Below, in pieces: positions 50,401 through 57,545 of a DNA stretch of 64,000 nucleotides. Both the position numbers and the translations under genes were made by a program. Location of the stretch: the NCBI GenBank assembly GCA_963665845.2, contig OY762492.1:2112001-2176000 (forward strand), given 5' to 3'. Numbering within the stretch: position 1 is the first letter of the stretch; each line of letters begins with the position of its first letter. The notes beneath the pieces were generated by a model. The model was not told the origin of the DNA, ran no database searches, and was given only the letters and a program-made list of their open reading frames with translations. This DNA is from Candidatus Poribacteria bacterium. GTDB taxonomy: Bacteria > Poribacteria > WGA-4E > GCA-2687025.

Positions 50401-51636
50401 TTAAAAAAGAAGTCGTCCGCCCGCCAAGAAGCGATGCCCCGTCCGCGATTCGTTCAGGTCGTCGCCGCTGCGCTCCCATGCGCTGAACTCGTACGCCAGA
50501 TCCAAAAAGGCGGCGCGCCCCATCGGAAGGCCCGCCCCCATCGACAGCGCCAGCGGCGCCCTGTCATACGATTTCCAGTCGGACGACAACTTCGGCGACC
50601 CGAAGCGCAAGCCGCCCCGCAGCGCGATGTCGTTTTCAAACCAATGCTCCGCGCCCAGCTTCAGCTCCGTCTCGTTCTGATACAGCGTCTCGAACTGATC
50701 CGCGTCCACATCCTTAGCGGGGGCGGTGGAGTAGCGCGCGTCTGTCCAGCGCGCATGCCGTATCGCGCCCGAAATGCGCCAGCGGTACAGTTTCAGCGCC
50801 GATCCGATCTCGATCTCAAGCGGGATATGGAAATCGTACTTGATAAGCCCGCTGTTTCCGGAGCCGGCGTTGTCCCTGTCTCTGGATCGGTCCACCTGCG
50901 ACCAGTCTTCGCGTATGTCGACATCCGCCGGCAGATGCGCCGACGCGCCAAACAGGATGATCGGCGTCAAGCCGACTTCGGCGCCCAGTTTGAGCCGCGT
51001 CGCTGAAATATCGCGGCGTATGTCGTCCAGGTAGGTGTCGCCCGCTTCATAGCGGATATGCCGATCCCGCGCCCCGTCCCATTGGTTGAGCGCGATGCCG
51101 ACCCGAACGCCCCTTGCCACCTCAAACCCGGCGCCGAGCGAGAGCGCATGCACATTGCCGTCCGTCTCGATCTCTTCCCGTATCGCCGACCCGGCGAGCT
51201 GCCCAAGCGTTTCGACGCCTTCAACAAGCGAACGCCCCGAAAGACCGCGCGAATGCTGATAAGACGCCGCGACGCCGAGCCACGGAAACTCATAAAACCG
51301 ATGCGCGATTCCGATATGTCCAAAACGAACGTCCGACCAGGACGAGGACGCTGTCGGACTGGTTCCGAGCTGCGTTTCCAGACTGCCGCCGTTGTAAAAA
51401 AGGGAGCCTGAAACCTCCGAATAAGCGAGCGCCGCCAGTCCCGCGGGGTTGGTCGACAGCGCGTCCAGCCCCCTCGCCCGCGCGACGGTGGAGCCTGCGA
51501 GCGCGGCAGACCGCACATCGATGGTTCGCCCGTCCGCCGCTAGATTTTCCTCCAAAGGTACCGATTCCGCCGAAGCCCCGACCGCCAACGCCCATGCCGC
51601 CAGCGCCGCCGCGCACATCCTTGCCGCTTTATGCAT
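50401..51636 (-). CDS. Outer-membrane beta-barrel, FadL/OmpP1-like
   Basis: Signal peptide, NPAGLA motif, amphipathic strands, C-terminal Phe. Confidence 0.78.
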   Translation of the reverse strand: MHKAARMCAAALAAWALAVGASAESVPLEENLAADGRTIDVRSAALAGSTVARARGLDALSTNPAGLAALAYSEVSGSLFYNGGSLETQLGTSPTASSSWSDVRFGHIGIAHRFYEFPWLGVAASYQHSRGLSGRSLVEGVETLGQLAGSAIREEIETDGNVHALSLGAGFEVARGVRVGIALNQWDGARDRHIRYEAGDTYLDDIRRDISATRLKLGAEVGLTPIILFGASAHLPADVDIREDWSQVDRSRDRDNAGSGNSGLIKYDFHIPLEIEIGSALKLYRWRISGAIRHARWTDARYSTAPAKDVDADQFETLYQNETELKLGAEHWFENDIALRGGLRFGSPKLSSDWKSYDRAPLALSMGAGLPMGRAAFLDLAYEFSAWERSGDDLNESRTGHRFLAGGRLLF

Positions 51637-51819
51637 ATGCCGCCTCCCGCCATGTTGACCGCTTCCGTTCCGATTGCCATTATAACGTTTTACCGCGCAG
51701 AATTGTTTACAAACGCGCTTTCGGATATGATACTCATGAGCGGGCGGCGCGGAAATCCCTTGAAGCTGACCTTAAGGCTTTAGTTGGGACATTCCGCCTG
51801 GCGAACGCGGACCTTGTTT

Positions 51820-51931
51820 GCGGCGCCTCTAGATTCCCGCTTACGCGGGAATGACGTCTGGTTTGGCGGCGCCTTTTCCCAAGAGTAAAGCTTTGTTTGT
51901 TCAACTGTTCCAACTTTAGGCATGAGGTCGG
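51820..51931. repeat. REP cluster in the leader of the kinase-nuclease-helicase gene
   Basis: GATTCCCGCTTACGCGGGAATGAC plus an inverted copy of the 4384/44715 module. Confidence 0.8.
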
Positions 51932-51942
51932 TTGGAGGTTTT

Positions 51943-54900
51943 ATGAAACGAGCCAGAGGCGAATGGCTCAAAAGCGGACGGCTGCAGCTGGAGGCGCCGC
52001 TGGGCGAAGGCGCCTTCGGCGAAGTGTGGAAAGCGGTCGAGTATATCGGCTTCGGGCAGCGGGGCGAACTGGTGCGCCTTCGGGAAGCCGCCGTCAAATG
52101 CCTTCCGCCGCTGCATGACGAACGGGACGGCCCGCGCGTCATACAGGAGGCGCAGGGGCTGGCGGAACTTCAACATGAATCGATCCTTCGGCTTTACGAC
52201 GCCTTCGCCGACGCGGACGGAACCTATCTCGTTACCGAGCTGGCGACGGAGGGGCATCTCTGGCAGCACTTCGACGGCTCCGTTCCGACCGAGTCGGAGC
52301 TTCGGGAGCTGCTGTTTGCGGTCGGGCGCGGGCTGAATTATCTCCATGAGCAGGGGTATGTGCATGGCGATCTGAAGCCTGAAAACATTTTGGTCTCGGA
52401 GGGGCAGGATTACCAGCCGCGGTATCTGATTGCCGATTTTGGGCTGCGTTCGCTGATCGGAAGCCGGCATTTTCAAGGCACGGCGCCGTATATCGCCCCG
52501 GAGGCGTACTCCGCCAACGCGGGAGTCTTCACCGAACGCTCCGATGTGTACGCGCTCGGCGTCCTGCTGTATGAGGTTGCCAGCGGGTCGCGCCTCGCCG
52601 ACGCGCTTTCCGACAGCGAATTCGACGCCCTGCGCCAACGCAAACCGAACATGGACATCTTCAACGCGGCGATGGAACGCATCCGCGGGACGGTTCAAAA
52701 GATGCAGTGGCGCTCGCTGCAGCTGCCCTCCTTCTTGGGAACGATCCTGCAGTTTTGCCTGGACCCCAACCCGGATCGGCGCCCGTCGGCATGGGGGCTG
52801 ATGGAGCTGTGGGCGGCGTTCAGCAGGTCGCAAAGCGGCGTTCTGCAGATTGATCAAGAAGGCTCCGTTCAAAAGCCGGCGACCTACAAGGCTCCGTTCG
52901 CGCGCGTCGTCGACATCGAAGAAGACCTGACGAACCCGTATGGAACGGAGGCATGCGCCGCGCGGCTTGCCGCCGAAGACGGAGAATTCATGACCGTCTC
53001 CATCGACCGCGGCGTCAACCTGCCGATGTTTCAGGCGGTGGAACAGCTTAAAAACAGGGTGTCGGAACGCCCCGCTCTCGTATCGTTTTACAATCTGGAG
53101 CCGCTGGACATTGACCAGATGCGCTTCTCGGCGACGCGCAGCAGCTACGCCGTTGTGGAGCCGCTGCGCCTCATCGACGTGACCGAATTGAGCCAGAGCG
53201 CTTTTTGCCACCGCTCCTCGCTTCACCGCATTGCGGGGACGGGCGTTCAGTTGAGCGAGCCTCTCATGCGCGGTCAGGTTGCGCATGCGCTTTTTGCGGA
53301 CATGCTGCTGAATGCGCGGGTCGATTTTGACGAGGCATGGGAGGCGCGCCGCCCTGGCTGGAGCCTCGACTTTGCCTATCTGTTTGAAGACGACGCGCAG
53401 CTGGAGCGGTTTAAAAAGGAGGCGCGCCGCCATTTTGACAACATCAAAAAGGCGCTGCATGAGGAGCCAGCCTGGTACAGCCCGCGCCGTCATGTGGAGT
53501 CGATGCGCTGGTCGGCGGAGTTGGGTTTGCTGGGTCGGGTGGACGCTTTTTTCTTGGCTGAAGGCGGACGCGCGGCGGTGTATGAGCTGAAGGCGGGGCG
53601 CGTCGACAGCGGGGATGTGTTTCAGCTGCAGGCGTACGCGGCGATGTTGAGCGAGGATATGCGCGCCGCCGGGCGCCGTCCAGGAGAAACGGCGTCTCTT
53701 CGCGCGCGTCTTCTGTCGAGCGCGGACGGGCGCATGCGCGGCGCCTCTCCCGCGCCGAGGGCGAAGCTTGCCGCCGCTCGAAATCAAGCCGCGCATCTGC
53801 GCGAGCAGCTGATGGAGCCGCGACGCGCGGACGATCCTCTCCCGCCCGACTACCCGTTTTTCGGATACCATCCCGCAAAATGCAGCCACTGCTCAACCCA
53901 TTACCGGTTTCTTCATCAGGCATGCGAACGTTCAACGGCGCTGTTCGGCGAACGCGGCGACCTGGACAAGCCCGCCTTGACTCCCCTTGAACAGGACTAT
54001 TTCTGGCATGGCATCCGTCTCGCTCTCATCGAAGAGGAGGCGGTGCGGCGTCAGTATCTGCAGCCGCTTTTGAGCGCCATGCAGGCGCCCGGCAGCTTGA
54101 TGGAGGTAGAGATTCCGCGCGGAGAGCGGCGCATCGAAGGGGCGCGCCTGGCGAACCGCCAAGACTCGCGGCTTGAGTTTCAGTTTGAACCGGGCATGGC
54201 GGAATTCAAGGAGGGGGACGAGGCGATTGCGCACCGCGGCGACCTTCGCCGCTGGCATGAAACGATGCGCGGCACGGTCGCCGAGGCGTCCGGCGGGACG
54301 CTGGTCGTTGAAACGCATGAAGCGCGCGCCTTTCAAGACGCCGCCGACCTGCCGAAAGACGGCTGGGTCGTGGAACGGTTCCCGCGCTTCTACCGCTCCG
54401 ATCTGCTCCGCCGGGCGCTTTATCGGTTCATATCGTCGCGCAACGAGGCGATGAAAACGCTCGTTCTGGAGGGGCTTATGCCGAAGCGTCAGGGGCTGCT
54501 TTTCTCGGCGGCAAAGCCGGACGCCCTGCGCCTTTCGATGAAAAACCGCCTGAACGCGCAGCAGAGCGCCGCCCTGTTGAGCGGACTGGACGAGAACGGC
54601 TTTTTGTCGATCACCGGACCGCCCGGAACCGGCAAAACGATGACGATACACGCCATCATCGAGACGCATGTTCGGCAGAACGCGCGCGTCCTCGCCGCCG
54701 CCGTGACAAACAACGCCATCGACAACATCGTGGAGCGGTGGATCGAAAGCGGGCATGGCGCCGCCGGTTTTGAGCCGTTTTTCCGCTTTGGGCTTCACTC
54801 CTCTATGACCGATCAATTCAAAGAAAGCTTGAAACGGCTCAACGTTGACGGACGGCGCATGTTTGCGAAGGAGGCGGGCGCCGCGTTTGACAGCCTCGCC

Positions 54901-55902
54901 GAACTGCGCGCGCATTTAGAGTCGACGCGGCTGCTTCTCGGCACGGCGCATTCGCTGCTGGAGTCGCCATGGGTCGCTCAAGAAAACCCGGACGGCTCCC
55001 CCCCGTTCGACCTTGTCATCGTGGACGAGGCGACGCAGATGCCCGAGCCGCTCGCGGCGGCGCTGTTGACGCTCGGCAAAAAGGCGATCCTGGTCGGCGA
55101 CGAGGAGCAGCTCGGGCCGGTCTGCCTTTCGTCGTTTGACGCGCGGCATGCGGAGATGCCGGAGTCGCTGCGGGAAATCGGAATATCGGGGCTGGACAAG
55201 TCGCTGTTTGAGCGGTTGAACGCGCTTTTGAAGGAGCGCGGCGGCGAGGAGGGGCTGGTCTTTCTCTCGCGCCAGTATCGAATGCATCCCGCTATCAGCG
55301 AGTGGGCGTCCGAACAGTTTTACGGCGGACGCCTGGAGACCGCGGACGAAGCGCAAGCCCGCCTCCCAGAGCTGGAACGGGCGGCGGAGCAGCCGGGGTG
55401 GGAACTCCTGGCGCGCGTCTTGGACCCGTCCAGCCCGTTCGTGTTTTTAGACATACCGGGCGGAAGCGGGGACATCCCCAACATGAACAAAAAAGAGGCG
55501 GAGATTGCCGCCCTGCTGACGCTCGCCATGTCGCGCCTCGGCATGAACGATGTCGGATGCATCACGCCGTACCGGAACCAGCAGGCGGAACTGCGCCGTC
55601 AGCTGCGCCGTTTCAACCTGTCCGCGGAATGCGGCACGGTGGACGCTTTCCAGGGGCGTGAAAAGACGGTGGTTATTTTGTCAACAGCGCGGCGCGACAG
55701 GCTCACCTCTTTTCTGGGCGAAAGGCGGCGGCTGAATGTGAGCGTCACCCGCGCGCGCCGAAAATGCGTCATACTCGGAAGCCTCGCCGTCTTGAGAGAC
55801 CACCCGCTGCTATGGCGGCTCGCCGAAAGGGAAGATTGCCGGCGCGAACGGGCGGAGCCGTCCGACCTGCGCCGAGAACTTGGACTGGAGCCGAACGCAT
55901 GA
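51943..55902 (+). CDS. Ser/Thr kinase fused to a Dna2-like Fe-S PD-(D/E)XK nuclease and an SF1 (Upf1/Dna2-like) helicase
   Basis: Kinase: GEGAFGEV, AAVK, HGDLKPEN, DFG, APE, SDVYALG. Nuclease: FC, H, E..WS..GL.GRVD, YELKAG, QLQAY, CSHC..C. Helicase: GPPGTGKT, DEATQ, VGD..QL.P, QYRMHP, ITPY, TVDAFQGRE, RLNVSVTRAR. GGAGG RBS precedes ATG 51943. Confidence 0.92.
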   Translation: MKRARGEWLKSGRLQLEAPLGEGAFGEVWKAVEYIGFGQRGELVRLREAAVKCLPPLHDERDGPRVIQEAQGLAELQHESILRLYDAFADADGTYLVTELATEGHLWQHFDGSVPTESELRELLFAVGRGLNYLHEQGYVHGDLKPENILVSEGQDYQPRYLIADFGLRSLIGSRHFQGTAPYIAPEAYSANAGVFTERSDVYALGVLLYEVASGSRLADALSDSEFDALRQRKPNMDIFNAAMERIRGTVQKMQWRSLQLPSFLGTILQFCLDPNPDRRPSAWGLMELWAAFSRSQSGVLQIDQEGSVQKPATYKAPFARVVDIEEDLTNPYGTEACAARLAAEDGEFMTVSIDRGVNLPMFQAVEQLKNRVSERPALVSFYNLEPLDIDQMRFSATRSSYAVVEPLRLIDVTELSQSAFCHRSSLHRIAGTGVQLSEPLMRGQVAHALFADMLLNARVDFDEAWEARRPGWSLDFAYLFEDDAQLERFKKEARRHFDNIKKALHEEPAWYSPRRHVESMRWSAELGLLGRVDAFFLAEGGRAAVYELKAGRVDSGDVFQLQAYAAMLSEDMRAAGRRPGETASLRARLLSSADGRMRGASPAPRAKLAAARNQAAHLREQLMEPRRADDPLPPDYPFFGYHPAKCSHCSTHYRFLHQACERSTALFGERGDLDKPALTPLEQDYFWHGIRLALIEEEAVRRQYLQPLLSAMQAPGSLMEVEIPRGERRIEGARLANRQDSRLEFQFEPGMAEFKEGDEAIAHRGDLRRWHETMRGTVAEASGGTLVVETHEARAFQDAADLPKDGWVVERFPRFYRSDLLRRALYRFISSRNEAMKTLVLEGLMPKRQGLLFSAAKPDALRLSMKNRLNAQQSAALLSGLDENGFLSITGPPGTGKTMTIHAIIETHVRQNARVLAAAVTNNAIDNIVERWIESGHGAAGFEPFFRFGLHSSMTDQFKESLKRLNVDGRRMFAKEAGAAFDSLAELRAHLESTRLLLGTAHSLLESPWVAQENPDGSPPFDLVIVDEATQMPEPLAAALLTLGKKAILVGDEEQLGPVCLSSFDARHAEMPESLREIGISGLDKSLFERLNALLKERGGEEGLVFLSRQYRMHPAISEWASEQFYGGRLETADEAQARLPELERAAEQPGWELLARVLDPSSPFVFLDIPGGSGDIPNMNKKEAEIAALLTLAMSRLGMNDVGCITPYRNQQAELRRQLRRFNLSAECGTVDAFQGREKTVVILSTARRDRLTSFLGERRRLNVSVTRARRKCVILGSLAVLRDHPLLWRLAEREDCRRERAEPSDLRRELGLEPNA

Positions 55903-56411
55903 CGAAGTGGTGGATTCTGCTGGCGGCGGCCGCTGTCGCCGAGATCTCCTTCGGCGTCTATATCTGGTCGTACCGCCCCGCGCCGCCGACCGAAGCGGTT
56001 TATGCGTCCATGGAGGCGGCGCAGGAGTCGGACCTGGACGCGCTGGACGCCGTTCTCCGCGCGAGAGGCGCCGCGTCCAACCCGCGCGCCGTCTGGACAT
56101 CCTATATCGGCGCGTTATACATGGAAGAATATGAGGCGGCGTACAGCATGTTGTCGCGGCGTTCGCGGGCGGCGTTTGAGGCGGCGGGCGGTGTTGACCT
56201 GTTTAAAAAAACGCGCCGCGCCGACCCGACCCGCTTCGATCTCGGCAAAACATTGACGCTGGCGCAGGAGGAGAAAACGGCGCTCATCGCCGCGCGTGAG
56301 TATGATTCCCATGCATGGATCAAGGCGCGCCTGCGGCAAGAAGGCGGACAATGGCGCATCGAAACGCGCCCCTCGCCCGACAAGAAGCGCGCCGTTTATC
56401 CTTACCGCTAA
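55899..56411 (+). CDS. Single-TM hypothetical protein, possibly with an NTF2-like domain
   Basis: ATGA-coupled to the upstream gene. N-terminal TM, then YEAAYSMLS and L.QEGGQWRI. Confidence 0.72.
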   Translation: MTKWWILLAAAAVAEISFGVYIWSYRPAPPTEAVYASMEAAQESDLDALDAVLRARGAASNPRAVWTSYIGALYMEEYEAAYSMLSRRSRAAFEAAGGVDLFKKTRRADPTRFDLGKTLTLAQEEKTALIAAREYDSHAWIKARLRQEGGQWRIETRPSPDKKRAVYPYR

Positions 56412-57299: not shown

Positions 57300-57545
57300 C
57301 CTGTCCGCAACGAACAAAGTTTTTATTTATGGGAAAGGCTTCGCCAACCAGATCGTCATTCCCGCGCAAGCGGGAATCTTAAGGCATCGTCACAGCCGCC
57401 CCGCGCGGCTAAAACCCCCCCAGCCCCCCTTTTCAAGGGGGAGTTCAGAAATCCCGCGCAAGCGGGAATGCAGAGTTTTCCCAGACCGCGTCCGCATTCC
57501 AAAACGGAACCCTCTAAAATCAAAATCATCGTATAGAGAGACTGT
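57300..57545. repeat. Mosaic REP cluster
   Basis: Two ATTCCC/ATCCC..GGGAAT palindromes, a C/G-run hairpin and a CTCTAAAATCAAAATCATCGTATAGAGAGACT module. Confidence 0.85.

What the first reader, a model, noticed from the sequence alone, without database searches (positions are those of the whole stretch)
51943..55902. Protein kinase fused to a complete Dna2-like Fe-S nuclease-helicase: candidate undescribed defence or DNA-damage signalling system
Seen: one 1319-aa ORF with three apparently intact modules. (a) Hanks-type kinase, about 51990-52800: GEGAFGEV, AAVK, HGDLKPEN, DFG, APE. (b) PD-(D/E)XK nuclease, about 53170-53930: IDVTELSQSAFC, RGQVAH, VESMRWSAELGLLGRVD, YELKAG, QLQAY. Its four Cys are split 1+3 around the nuclease (FC at about 53206, CSHC at 53881, AC at about 53922). 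(c) SF1 helicase, about 54550-55800, with all motifs. Established: the split Cys 'iron staple' is characteristic of Dna2, AddB and Cas4 nucleases, and Dna2 couples such a nuclease to an Upf1-like helicase without a kinase. As I recall, kinase plus SF1 helicase occurs in the anti-phage Mokosh type I system, but with a PLD partner; no PLD gene is present here. Inference: a single-chain sensor-effector in which ssDNA, flaps or ends activate the kinase, or phosphorylation gates the nuclease. The flanks are not a defence island and composition looks native, so a housekeeping repair or checkpoint role is equally plausible.
Basis: partly seen in the sequence, partly recalled or inferred. Interest (0 to 1): 0.85.

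Follow-up and report, generated by a model that had tools for sequence, protein, structure and literature searches.

The report
Bacterial Dna2 enzyme with built-in kinase
A marine bacterium carries a complete Dna2-type DNA-cutting and unwinding enzyme fused to an intact protein kinase; the gene is kept as a conserved single copy across its family, so it is likely a genome-maintenance enzyme with its own signalling switch rather than an anti-virus weapon, though this is untested.

Summary
The fusion is real. One 1319-aa ORF joins an intact non-RD Hanks kinase to a full Dna2 core (OB fold, four-Cys PD-(D/E)XK nuclease, stalk/barrel, SF1B helicase). The model's best PDB match is mouse Dna2, and independent contigs span the gene. 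It is single-copy in 7 of 8 genomes of one family (homologues are named Ca. Poribacteria) and was not found in 168 other genomes of the phylum. It is under purifying selection, more conserved than the AddA-like repair enzyme, native in codon use, and has no defence partner. The layout is not unique. It is near-core in two Bradymonadia orders (13 of 13 and 33 of 38). In the first the kinase is intact; in the second it has decayed to a pseudokinase, and NCBIfam already names that form 'PLuB system helicase-like protein' with no function given. It is not Mokosh, PLuB proper or Bad. Best reading: a 5'-flap/ssDNA-processing maintenance enzyme with a built-in regulatory kinase (0.55); defence 0.25. 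My paper searches found no description of the fusion. Earlier scan notes cover other Dna2-like fusions on other DNA, none with a kinase.

The parts
51943..55902 (+). Kinase-Dna2 fusion gene, 1319 aa
51943..52833 (+). Hanks-type Ser/Thr kinase domain (aa 1-297): K52, E69, H141-G-D143-L-K145, N148, D165FG, A185PE; non-RD, 17 residues between DFG and APE
   Evidence: Pfam; alignment; fold; loop length
52840..53157 (+). OB-like beta domain (aa 300-405), where Dna2 has its OB fold
   Evidence: secondary structure; Foldseek to 5EAN; profile alignment
53158..53952 (+). PD-(D/E)XK nuclease with 1+3 split cysteines (C422; C647, C650, C661) and H448, D534, E548, K550, Q561
53953..54492 (+). Helical stalk and beta barrel (domain 1B) as in Dna2/Upf1 helicases
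54520..55860 (+). SF1B (Upf1/IGHMBP2/Dna2-type) helicase with motifs Q, I, Ia, II, III, IV, V, VI
51655..51734 (+). Three sigma-70-like promoter matches in the divergent intergenic region (consensus matches only)
   Evidence: 3 found, 0.1 expected in shuffles
51760..51931 (.). 172-bp multicopy repeat inserted between promoter and ribosome site; not part of the system
55899..56411 (+). Overlapping downstream gene, 170 aa with an N-terminal hydrophobic segment; linked only within the genus, probably not a partner

Best explanation
The gene encodes a Dna2-type nuclease-helicase joined to an intact protein kinase, and it likely works as a housekeeping genome-maintenance enzyme that would trim 5' single-stranded flaps or ends while the kinase likely acts as its built-in regulator or signal output. 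Shown: the domains, the intact catalytic residues, the Dna2 fold and the core-gene pattern of conservation. Inferred from Dna2 and Bad biochemistry: an Fe-S cluster staples the nuclease, ssDNA threads through the nuclease tunnel, and the motor moves 5' to 3'. Inferred only from position and conservation: the kinase sits where eukaryotic Dna2 has its regulatory N-terminus; it lacks the RD arginine and has a short activation segment, so it would be switched by the state of the DNA-bound core rather than by loop phosphorylation; it would phosphorylate the enzyme itself or a repair or replication protein. It supplements, and does not replace, AddAB-like resection, RecJ and PolA.
For: Fold and sequence: Foldseek best hits are mouse Dna2 (5EAN, E 3e-15, 652 columns); the family profile aligns to 5EAN from position 256 to 1157 (E 1.7e-160) with the four Cys and the H/D/E/K/Q residues in register (residues named in PMC4716839). 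Distribution: 7 of 8 genomes of the family, the miss being 64% complete, and 0 of 168 others in the phylum; single copy in G000; relatives in 13 of 13 and 33 of 38 genomes of two orders of another class. Selection: dN/dS 0.115 overall and 0.149 in the kinase, against 0.18-0.27 for three neighbours; identity above the AddA-like enzyme in 4 of 4 genome pairs (94/84, 52/35, 50/35, 57/39); codon adaptation at the 86th percentile of 1640 long ORFs. Context: 73 of 82 neighbours had no PADLOC hit and the other 9 were partial hits to generic domains. Precedent: yeast Dna2 is phosphorylated by Cdk1 and Mec1 and its N-terminus activates Mec1 (PMC6943134).
Against: No conserved link to repair genes; neighbours differ between genera. 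No palindrome shared with the recA and lexA upstream regions. The genome already has AddA-like, RecJ, PolA and RecA genes, so no missing function needs filling. The kinase is dead in one whole order (0 of 55 proteins and 0 of 11 loci keep HxDxKxxN), so catalysis is dispensable there. The Bad paper suggests a restriction role for Bad from its methyltransferase neighbour. PP2C (PF13672) was not found in 8 of 8 family genomes, although G000 has one SpoIIE-type phosphatase. The Poribacteria-only nuclease profile found no Dna2 chain in PDB and the single sequence matched Dna2 only in the helicase. No activity was measured.
Confidence: 0.55

Rival explanations
1. A single-gene defence system: the Dna2 core detects and degrades phage or plasmid replication intermediates, and the kinase triggers growth arrest, as in kinase-containing anti-phage systems.
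For: Kinase plus Upf1-like helicase is the layout of Mokosh MkoA (bioRxiv 2022.05.11.491447), and MkoA is the best PADLOC hit (helicase region, E 1e-89). Bad is proposed to be a restriction subunit. Prokaryotic Dna2-like cores swap N-terminal modules (kinase, NERD, helical, none), as conflict systems often do. The gene jumps between distant lineages. No PP2C was found in the family.
Against: Near-core, single-copy and slowly evolving in three lineages. No PLD, methyltransferase or other defence gene beside it; one partial caspase hit among 82 neighbours. Native codon use. Nuclease and helicase stay intact where the kinase has died.
Confidence: 0.25
2. The kinase fold is mainly a structural or partner-binding module (for example for SSB or nucleotide sensing); catalysis is incidental and the protein is simply a bacterial Dna2.
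For: The domain is kept as a pseudokinase across one order (hhalign to intact relatives 98.6%, E 1e-15; Gly loop, Lys, alphaC Glu and catalytic Asp lost). Closely related cores have no kinase at all.
Against: K52, E69, D143, K145, N148 and D165 are invariant in 10 of 10 aligned Poribacteria-type proteins; the kinase is as conserved as the helicase across genera and has dN/dS 0.149; 8 of 8 loci outside that order keep HRDxK.
Confidence: 0.12
3. The enzyme processes incoming or scavenged single-stranded nucleic acid (uptake, prey DNA, or RNA/R-loops through the Upf1-like motor) rather than the cell's own replication forks.
For: The helicase alone matches IGHMBP2 and Upf1 as well as Dna2. The related family is core in Bradymonadales, described as predators in paper titles and abstracts seen in a listing, where it precedes a PQQ-repeat protein and myxosortase MrtP.
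Against: No signal peptide or membrane segment at the N-terminus; the PQQ-repeat gene is not over cut-off in 8 of 8 family genomes; no uptake genes are conserved next to it.
Confidence: 0.08

Closest known systems
Eukaryotic Dna2 (mouse, PDB 5EAN/5EAW/5EAX; PMC4716839)
   Same: OB + four-Cys PD-(D/E)XK nuclease + stalk/barrel + SF1B helicase in the same order; H, D, ExK and Q active-site residues and all four Cys align; nuclease Asp to Walker A Lys spacing 364 against about 377.
   Different: A whole catalytic kinase domain at the N-terminus in place of the RPA-binding helix or regulatory tail; CxxC-x10-C in place of CxxC-x5-C; restricted to a few bacterial lineages.
NCBIfam PLuB_AAA (NF040671, 'PLuB system helicase-like protein'; Persicimonas, Lujinxingia, Bradymonas)
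   Same: Same overall layout: kinase fold + Dna2 core. Best NCBIfam hit, covering residues 261-1296. Cores fall on one supported branch with the Poribacteria proteins and some kinase-free ones.
   Different: Score 354 against cut-off 999; PLuB's kinase is a pseudokinase; PLuB sits with a PQQ-repeat protein and myxosortase MrtP, which are absent here. The family name gives no function and mentions neither kinase nor nuclease.
Bad of Geobacillus stearothermophilus (PMC7430649)
   Same: Bacterial Fe-S nuclease fused to an SF1B motor; the only biochemical model (5'-flap preference, 5' to 3' motor, nuclease masks helicase).
   Different: Bad has no kinase, has a large central domain (D150 to K815, 665 residues, against 364 here) and neighbours a methyltransferase.
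Mokosh type I (MkoA + MkoB)
   Same: Ser/Thr kinase and Upf1-like helicase in one chain; MkoA is the best PADLOC hit.
   Different: The best MkoA stretch covers 741-1286 and skips the nuclease; Mokosh needs a PLD nuclease, absent here; this protein has its own Fe-S nuclease.

Membership tests
Dna2-like nuclease-helicase | RecB-family nuclease N-terminal to an SF1B helicase | tested here: met
   Pfam Dna2 over cut-off, AAA_11/12; profile to 5EAN end to end
Dna2-like nuclease-helicase | Four Cys split 1+3 around the nuclease | tested here: met
   C422, C647, C650, C661 invariant in 10 of 10, aligned by motif to Dna2's Cys
Dna2-like nuclease-helicase | Bound Fe-S cluster | not testable with these tools
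Dna2-like nuclease-helicase | OB domain, stalk and beta barrel | tested here: met
   model pLDDT 87; Foldseek 652 columns to 5EAN
Dna2-like nuclease-helicase | 5'-flap nuclease and 5' to 3' ssDNA motor activity | not testable with these tools
   residues intact; no assay
Hanks-type protein kinase | Gly loop, VAIK Lys, alphaC Glu, HxD, DFG, APE and kinase fold | tested here: met
   Z about 26, rmsd about 3 over about 260 residues to solved kinases
Hanks-type protein kinase | Phosphotransfer activity | not testable with these tools
   no assay
PLuB system (NF040671) | Score over the curated cut-off of 999 bits | tested here: not met
   353.9 bits; 0 of 21 genomes of the relatives set over cut-off
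PLuB system (NF040671) | Adjacent PLuB PQQ-repeat protein and myxosortase MrtP | tested here: not met
   neighbours differ; NF040673 over cut-off in 0 of 8 family genomes
Mokosh type I | Kinase plus Upf1-like helicase in one gene | tested here: met
Mokosh type I | PLD nuclease partner (MkoB) | tested here: not met
   no MkoB hit among 82 neighbours of 26 loci's selection, window included
Bad (Geobacillus type) | Central Bad-specific domain between nuclease and helicase | tested here: not met
   spacing 364 against 665 residues
Bad (Geobacillus type) | Neighbouring DNA methyltransferase | tested here: not met
   none among scanned neighbours

The most novel reading that the evidence does not exclude
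A bacterial one-protein DNA-damage checkpoint: ssDNA flaps or ends threading through the Dna2 tunnel switch on the fused non-RD kinase, which phosphorylates replication, repair or division proteins. This would be a LexA-independent, single-chain counterpart of the eukaryotic Dna2-Mec1/ATR link, joined to Dna2 at least twice in bacteria and decayed to a pseudokinase in one order.
Probability: 0.25. Interest if true: 0.85.

Novelty: new variant of a known kind. Interest (0 to 1): 0.62.

Why it matters
The role of bacterial Dna2-like enzymes is unknown (PMC7430649, Discussion). This family gives a natural test: the same core occurs with a live non-RD kinase, a live RD kinase, a dead kinase and no kinase, and one order that carries it has cultured species. 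In eukaryotes Dna2 and its kinases are separate proteins; a fused version would let kinase-nuclease coupling be studied in one polypeptide and could reveal a phosphorylation-based damage signal in bacteria. It also shows that NCBIfam's unexplained PLuB helicase is a pseudokinase-Dna2.

Tried and rejected
Assembly chimera: rejected. Start at 51922: rejected. Replacement for missing AddAB, RecJ or PolA: rejected, all present. Two-gene system with the 170-aa downstream ORF: rejected; linked only in the same genus, on the opposite strand 2 kb away in G004, not found in the other four loci; the atlas gave unnamed clusters and a borderline DUF4864 lead. LexA box: none shared with recA and lexA upstream regions, but no box is known for this lineage, so the test is weak. 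First structure prediction from 5 sequences failed (pLDDT 51). The genome-contig scan was swamped by generic helicases; the viral scan with one PLuB-type protein found nothing; the metagenome scan gave 1 full-length relative among 6 loci. Expression: an RNA run's contigs touch the gene but also its neighbours and DNA may be present, so it shows nothing. Single versus repeated origin of the fusion: unresolved for Poribacteria plus Bradymonadia (one clade not rejected: kinase p-AU 0.21; core p-AU 0.105; neither free tree shows it). The first tree did not finish. NF040670 and NF040672 were unrelated families. Paper searches that found no description of the fusion; supplement searches 135 (one file not searchable) and 136.
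Full report
Observation. Pfam gives Pkinase at 17-285, Dna2 at 399-503 just over its cut-off, and AAA_11/AAA_12. The start at 51943 follows a GGAGG site; the longer start at 51922 falls inside a 172-bp repeat that has 155 matches of 120 bp or more in the genome and is missing in the same-genus genome and in another strain's contig. Single contigs from runs X1 and X3 span the gene with no differences, and one from X5, another study, spans it with 250 differences. X1 and X3 may be the source of the assembly; X5 and the orthologues are independent. A chimera is excluded.

Anatomy. A model of residues 1-870 from 102 sequences has mean pLDDT 87 and pTM 0.69; an earlier model from 5 sequences failed. 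It shows a kinase (1-297), a short low-confidence linker, a beta domain, the nuclease, a long helical stalk and a beta barrel. Foldseek ranks mouse Dna2 first (5EAN, E 3e-15, 652 columns), then kinases; the kinase aligns to solved kinases at Z about 26. The family profile aligns to Dna2 from position 256 to 1157 (E 1.7e-160), with the first Cys, His, Asp, Glu-x-Lys, Gln and three C-terminal Cys in register (Dna2 residues from passages of PMC4716839). Against this, the single sequence met Dna2 only in the helicase and a Poribacteria-only nuclease profile found no Dna2 chain, so the link rests on the wider family and on the fold. In 10 aligned orthologues all kinase catalytic residues and all four Cys are invariant. 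The kinase is non-RD (HGD) with 17 residues between DFG and APE, against 20-23 in most others examined. That non-RD kinases usually do not need activation-loop phosphorylation is recalled knowledge, not a call.

Distribution. Homologues are named Ca. Poribacteria by NCBI, so the window is probably from that phylum. Full-length orthologues occur in 6 of 7 other genomes of the family, the miss being 64% complete, and were not found in 53 other genomes of the class or 168 of the phylum. A profile of the nuclease region found 519 proteins; of the best 150, 15 carry an intact kinase and 17 a kinase-like N-terminus with lost or truncated motifs; others carry NERD, an unnamed N-terminal region or nothing. 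The best NCBIfam hit, PLuB_AAA (354 bits, cut-off 999), turned out to be a family from Persicimonas, Lujinxingia and Bradymonas whose N-terminus is a pseudokinase (hhalign 98.6%, E 1e-15). It is present in 41 of 401 genomes of that phylum, 43 of 86 of the class, 33 of 38 of one order and 13 of 13 of another. In the first order 0 of 11 called loci and 0 of 55 proteins keep HxDxKxxN; 8 of 8 loci from outside it do (one of 20 fetched loci gave no gene call). Nuclease and Cys motifs stay intact in all these groups. A third small group (P0107, P0074, P0228-P0231) has its core among NERD-bearing proteins and is a separate fusion.

Origin. Poribacteria cores form a long, fully supported branch inside a 98/97 group with the Bradymonadia proteins and some kinase-free ones (31 selected rows, LG+G4; one search gave the same with 51). 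Poribacteria and Bradymonadia kinases share a long beta2-beta3 insertion ending in LRxxAxK, which hints at one origin, but neither free tree groups them; one clade is not rejected (p-AU 0.21 and 0.105). Unresolved.

Context. Neighbours are not kept across the family: a porin-like gene and a metallo-beta-lactamase fold here, a membrane protein and a TPR-metalloprotease in two other genera. The 170-aa overlapping ORF is linked only in the genus. In Bradymonadales the gene precedes a PQQ-repeat protein and myxosortase MrtP, which is what NCBIfam's 'PLuB system' appears to mean; the myxosortase preprint (10.1101/2023.06.07.544157, passages) names MrtP but not the helicase. I scanned 82 neighbours (81 of the 139 listed, dropping repeats of the same family, plus the downstream ORF) against PADLOC: 73 had no hit and 9 had partial hits to ABC ATPase, kinase, HTH or caspase domains; none was a PLD.

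Selection and background. dN/dS between the two same-genus genomes is 0.115 (kinase 0.149, nuclease 0.086, helicase 0.094), below three neighbours. The protein is more conserved than the AddA-like enzyme in 4 of 4 pairs, with about 850 residues of the latter compared. Codon adaptation is at the 86th percentile and the gene is single-copy. G000 keeps an AddA-like enzyme, RecJ, PolA, RecA and a LexA-like gene below cut-off. It has only two Hanks kinases, one double-FHA protein, no PP2C match (0 of 8 family genomes) and one SpoIIE-type phosphatase. No shared operator with recA or lexA was seen.

Mechanism. Shown: domains, intact residues, fold, conservation. Inferred from Dna2 and Bad (PMC7430649: abstract, introduction, passages and Discussion read): Fe-S staple, threading of a free 5' end, 5' to 3' motor, nuclease ahead of the motor. 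Inferred from position: the kinase occupies the place of Dna2's regulatory N-terminus, which in yeast is phosphorylated by Cdk1 and Mec1 and activates Mec1 (PMC6943134, passages). I put 0.55 on a maintenance enzyme with a regulatory kinase, 0.25 on defence, 0.12 on a non-catalytic role of the kinase fold, 0.08 on uptake or RNA processing. Core-gene behaviour in three lineages is the main argument; it is circumstantial, since some defence genes are also lineage-fixed (recalled).

Comparison and novelty. It works like Dna2/Bad and meets the testable Dna2 features. It fails PLuB (score, neighbours), Mokosh type I (no PLD; definition from passages of 10.1101/2022.05.11.491447, and 10.1101/2022.12.12.520048) and Bad (no central domain, no methyltransferase). 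Searches found no paper on a kinase-Dna2 fusion. The PD-(D/E)XK survey (PMC3424549, passages and supplement hits) lists Pkinase with other nuclease groups, not the Dna2 group; one of its files was not searchable and I saw only the first hits. Bad's supplement has no 'kinase', but its figures are not held. PMC11090510, PMC5704561 and PMC4937469 (passages) added nothing on this fusion. bioRxiv supplements were closed and subscription papers are missing, so a prior mention cannot be excluded. Verdict: a new variant of a known kind, interest 0.62.

Noticed in passing
window 51760-51931 and about 57334-57400: A 172-bp repeat with a palindromic core sits between the promoter and the ribosome site of the gene. 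It has 155 matches of 120 bp or more in G000 and is cleanly absent in a same-genus genome and another strain, so it looks like a recently mobile MITE- or REP-like element that could alter expression.
   Followed up: partly
G000 whole genome: Only two Hanks kinases, one double-FHA protein (C1:2474097-2474600) and one SpoIIE-type phosphatase; PP2C (PF13672) was not found in 8 of 8 family genomes.
   Followed up: partly
P0107, P0074, P0228-P0231: A separate kinase-Dna2 fusion whose core groups with NERD-Dna2 proteins; hosts and neighbourhoods unknown.
   Followed up: partly
P0073, P0103, P0111; P0037, P0049 and about 60 similar 1100-1140 aa proteins: Prokaryotic Dna2-like cores with an N-terminal NERD nuclease, or with an unnamed N-terminal region of about 190 aa; in P0037 and P0049 the C-terminal Cys cluster did not align.
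   Followed up: no
L151-L162: NCBIfam's PLuB system is a pseudokinase-Dna2 gene followed by a PQQ-repeat protein and myxosortase MrtP; the link between a DNA enzyme and a protein-sorting protease is unexplained and may be plain synteny.
   Followed up: partly
L010, L011, L013, L015: In two other genera the gene lies between an unnamed membrane protein of about 225-250 aa and a TPR protein with an M10-like metalloprotease domain; G000 has the latter elsewhere (C1:1366039-1368294).
   Followed up: partly
L012:3100-3212 (G004); L161 (G271): Frame breaks: in the kinase N-lobe of the G004 orthologue and within the G271 PLuB gene; assembly error or decay not distinguished.
   Followed up: no
window 50401-51636 (-): Divergent outer-membrane beta-barrel gene with weak BamG and PorV/PorQ matches below cut-off.
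   Followed up: no
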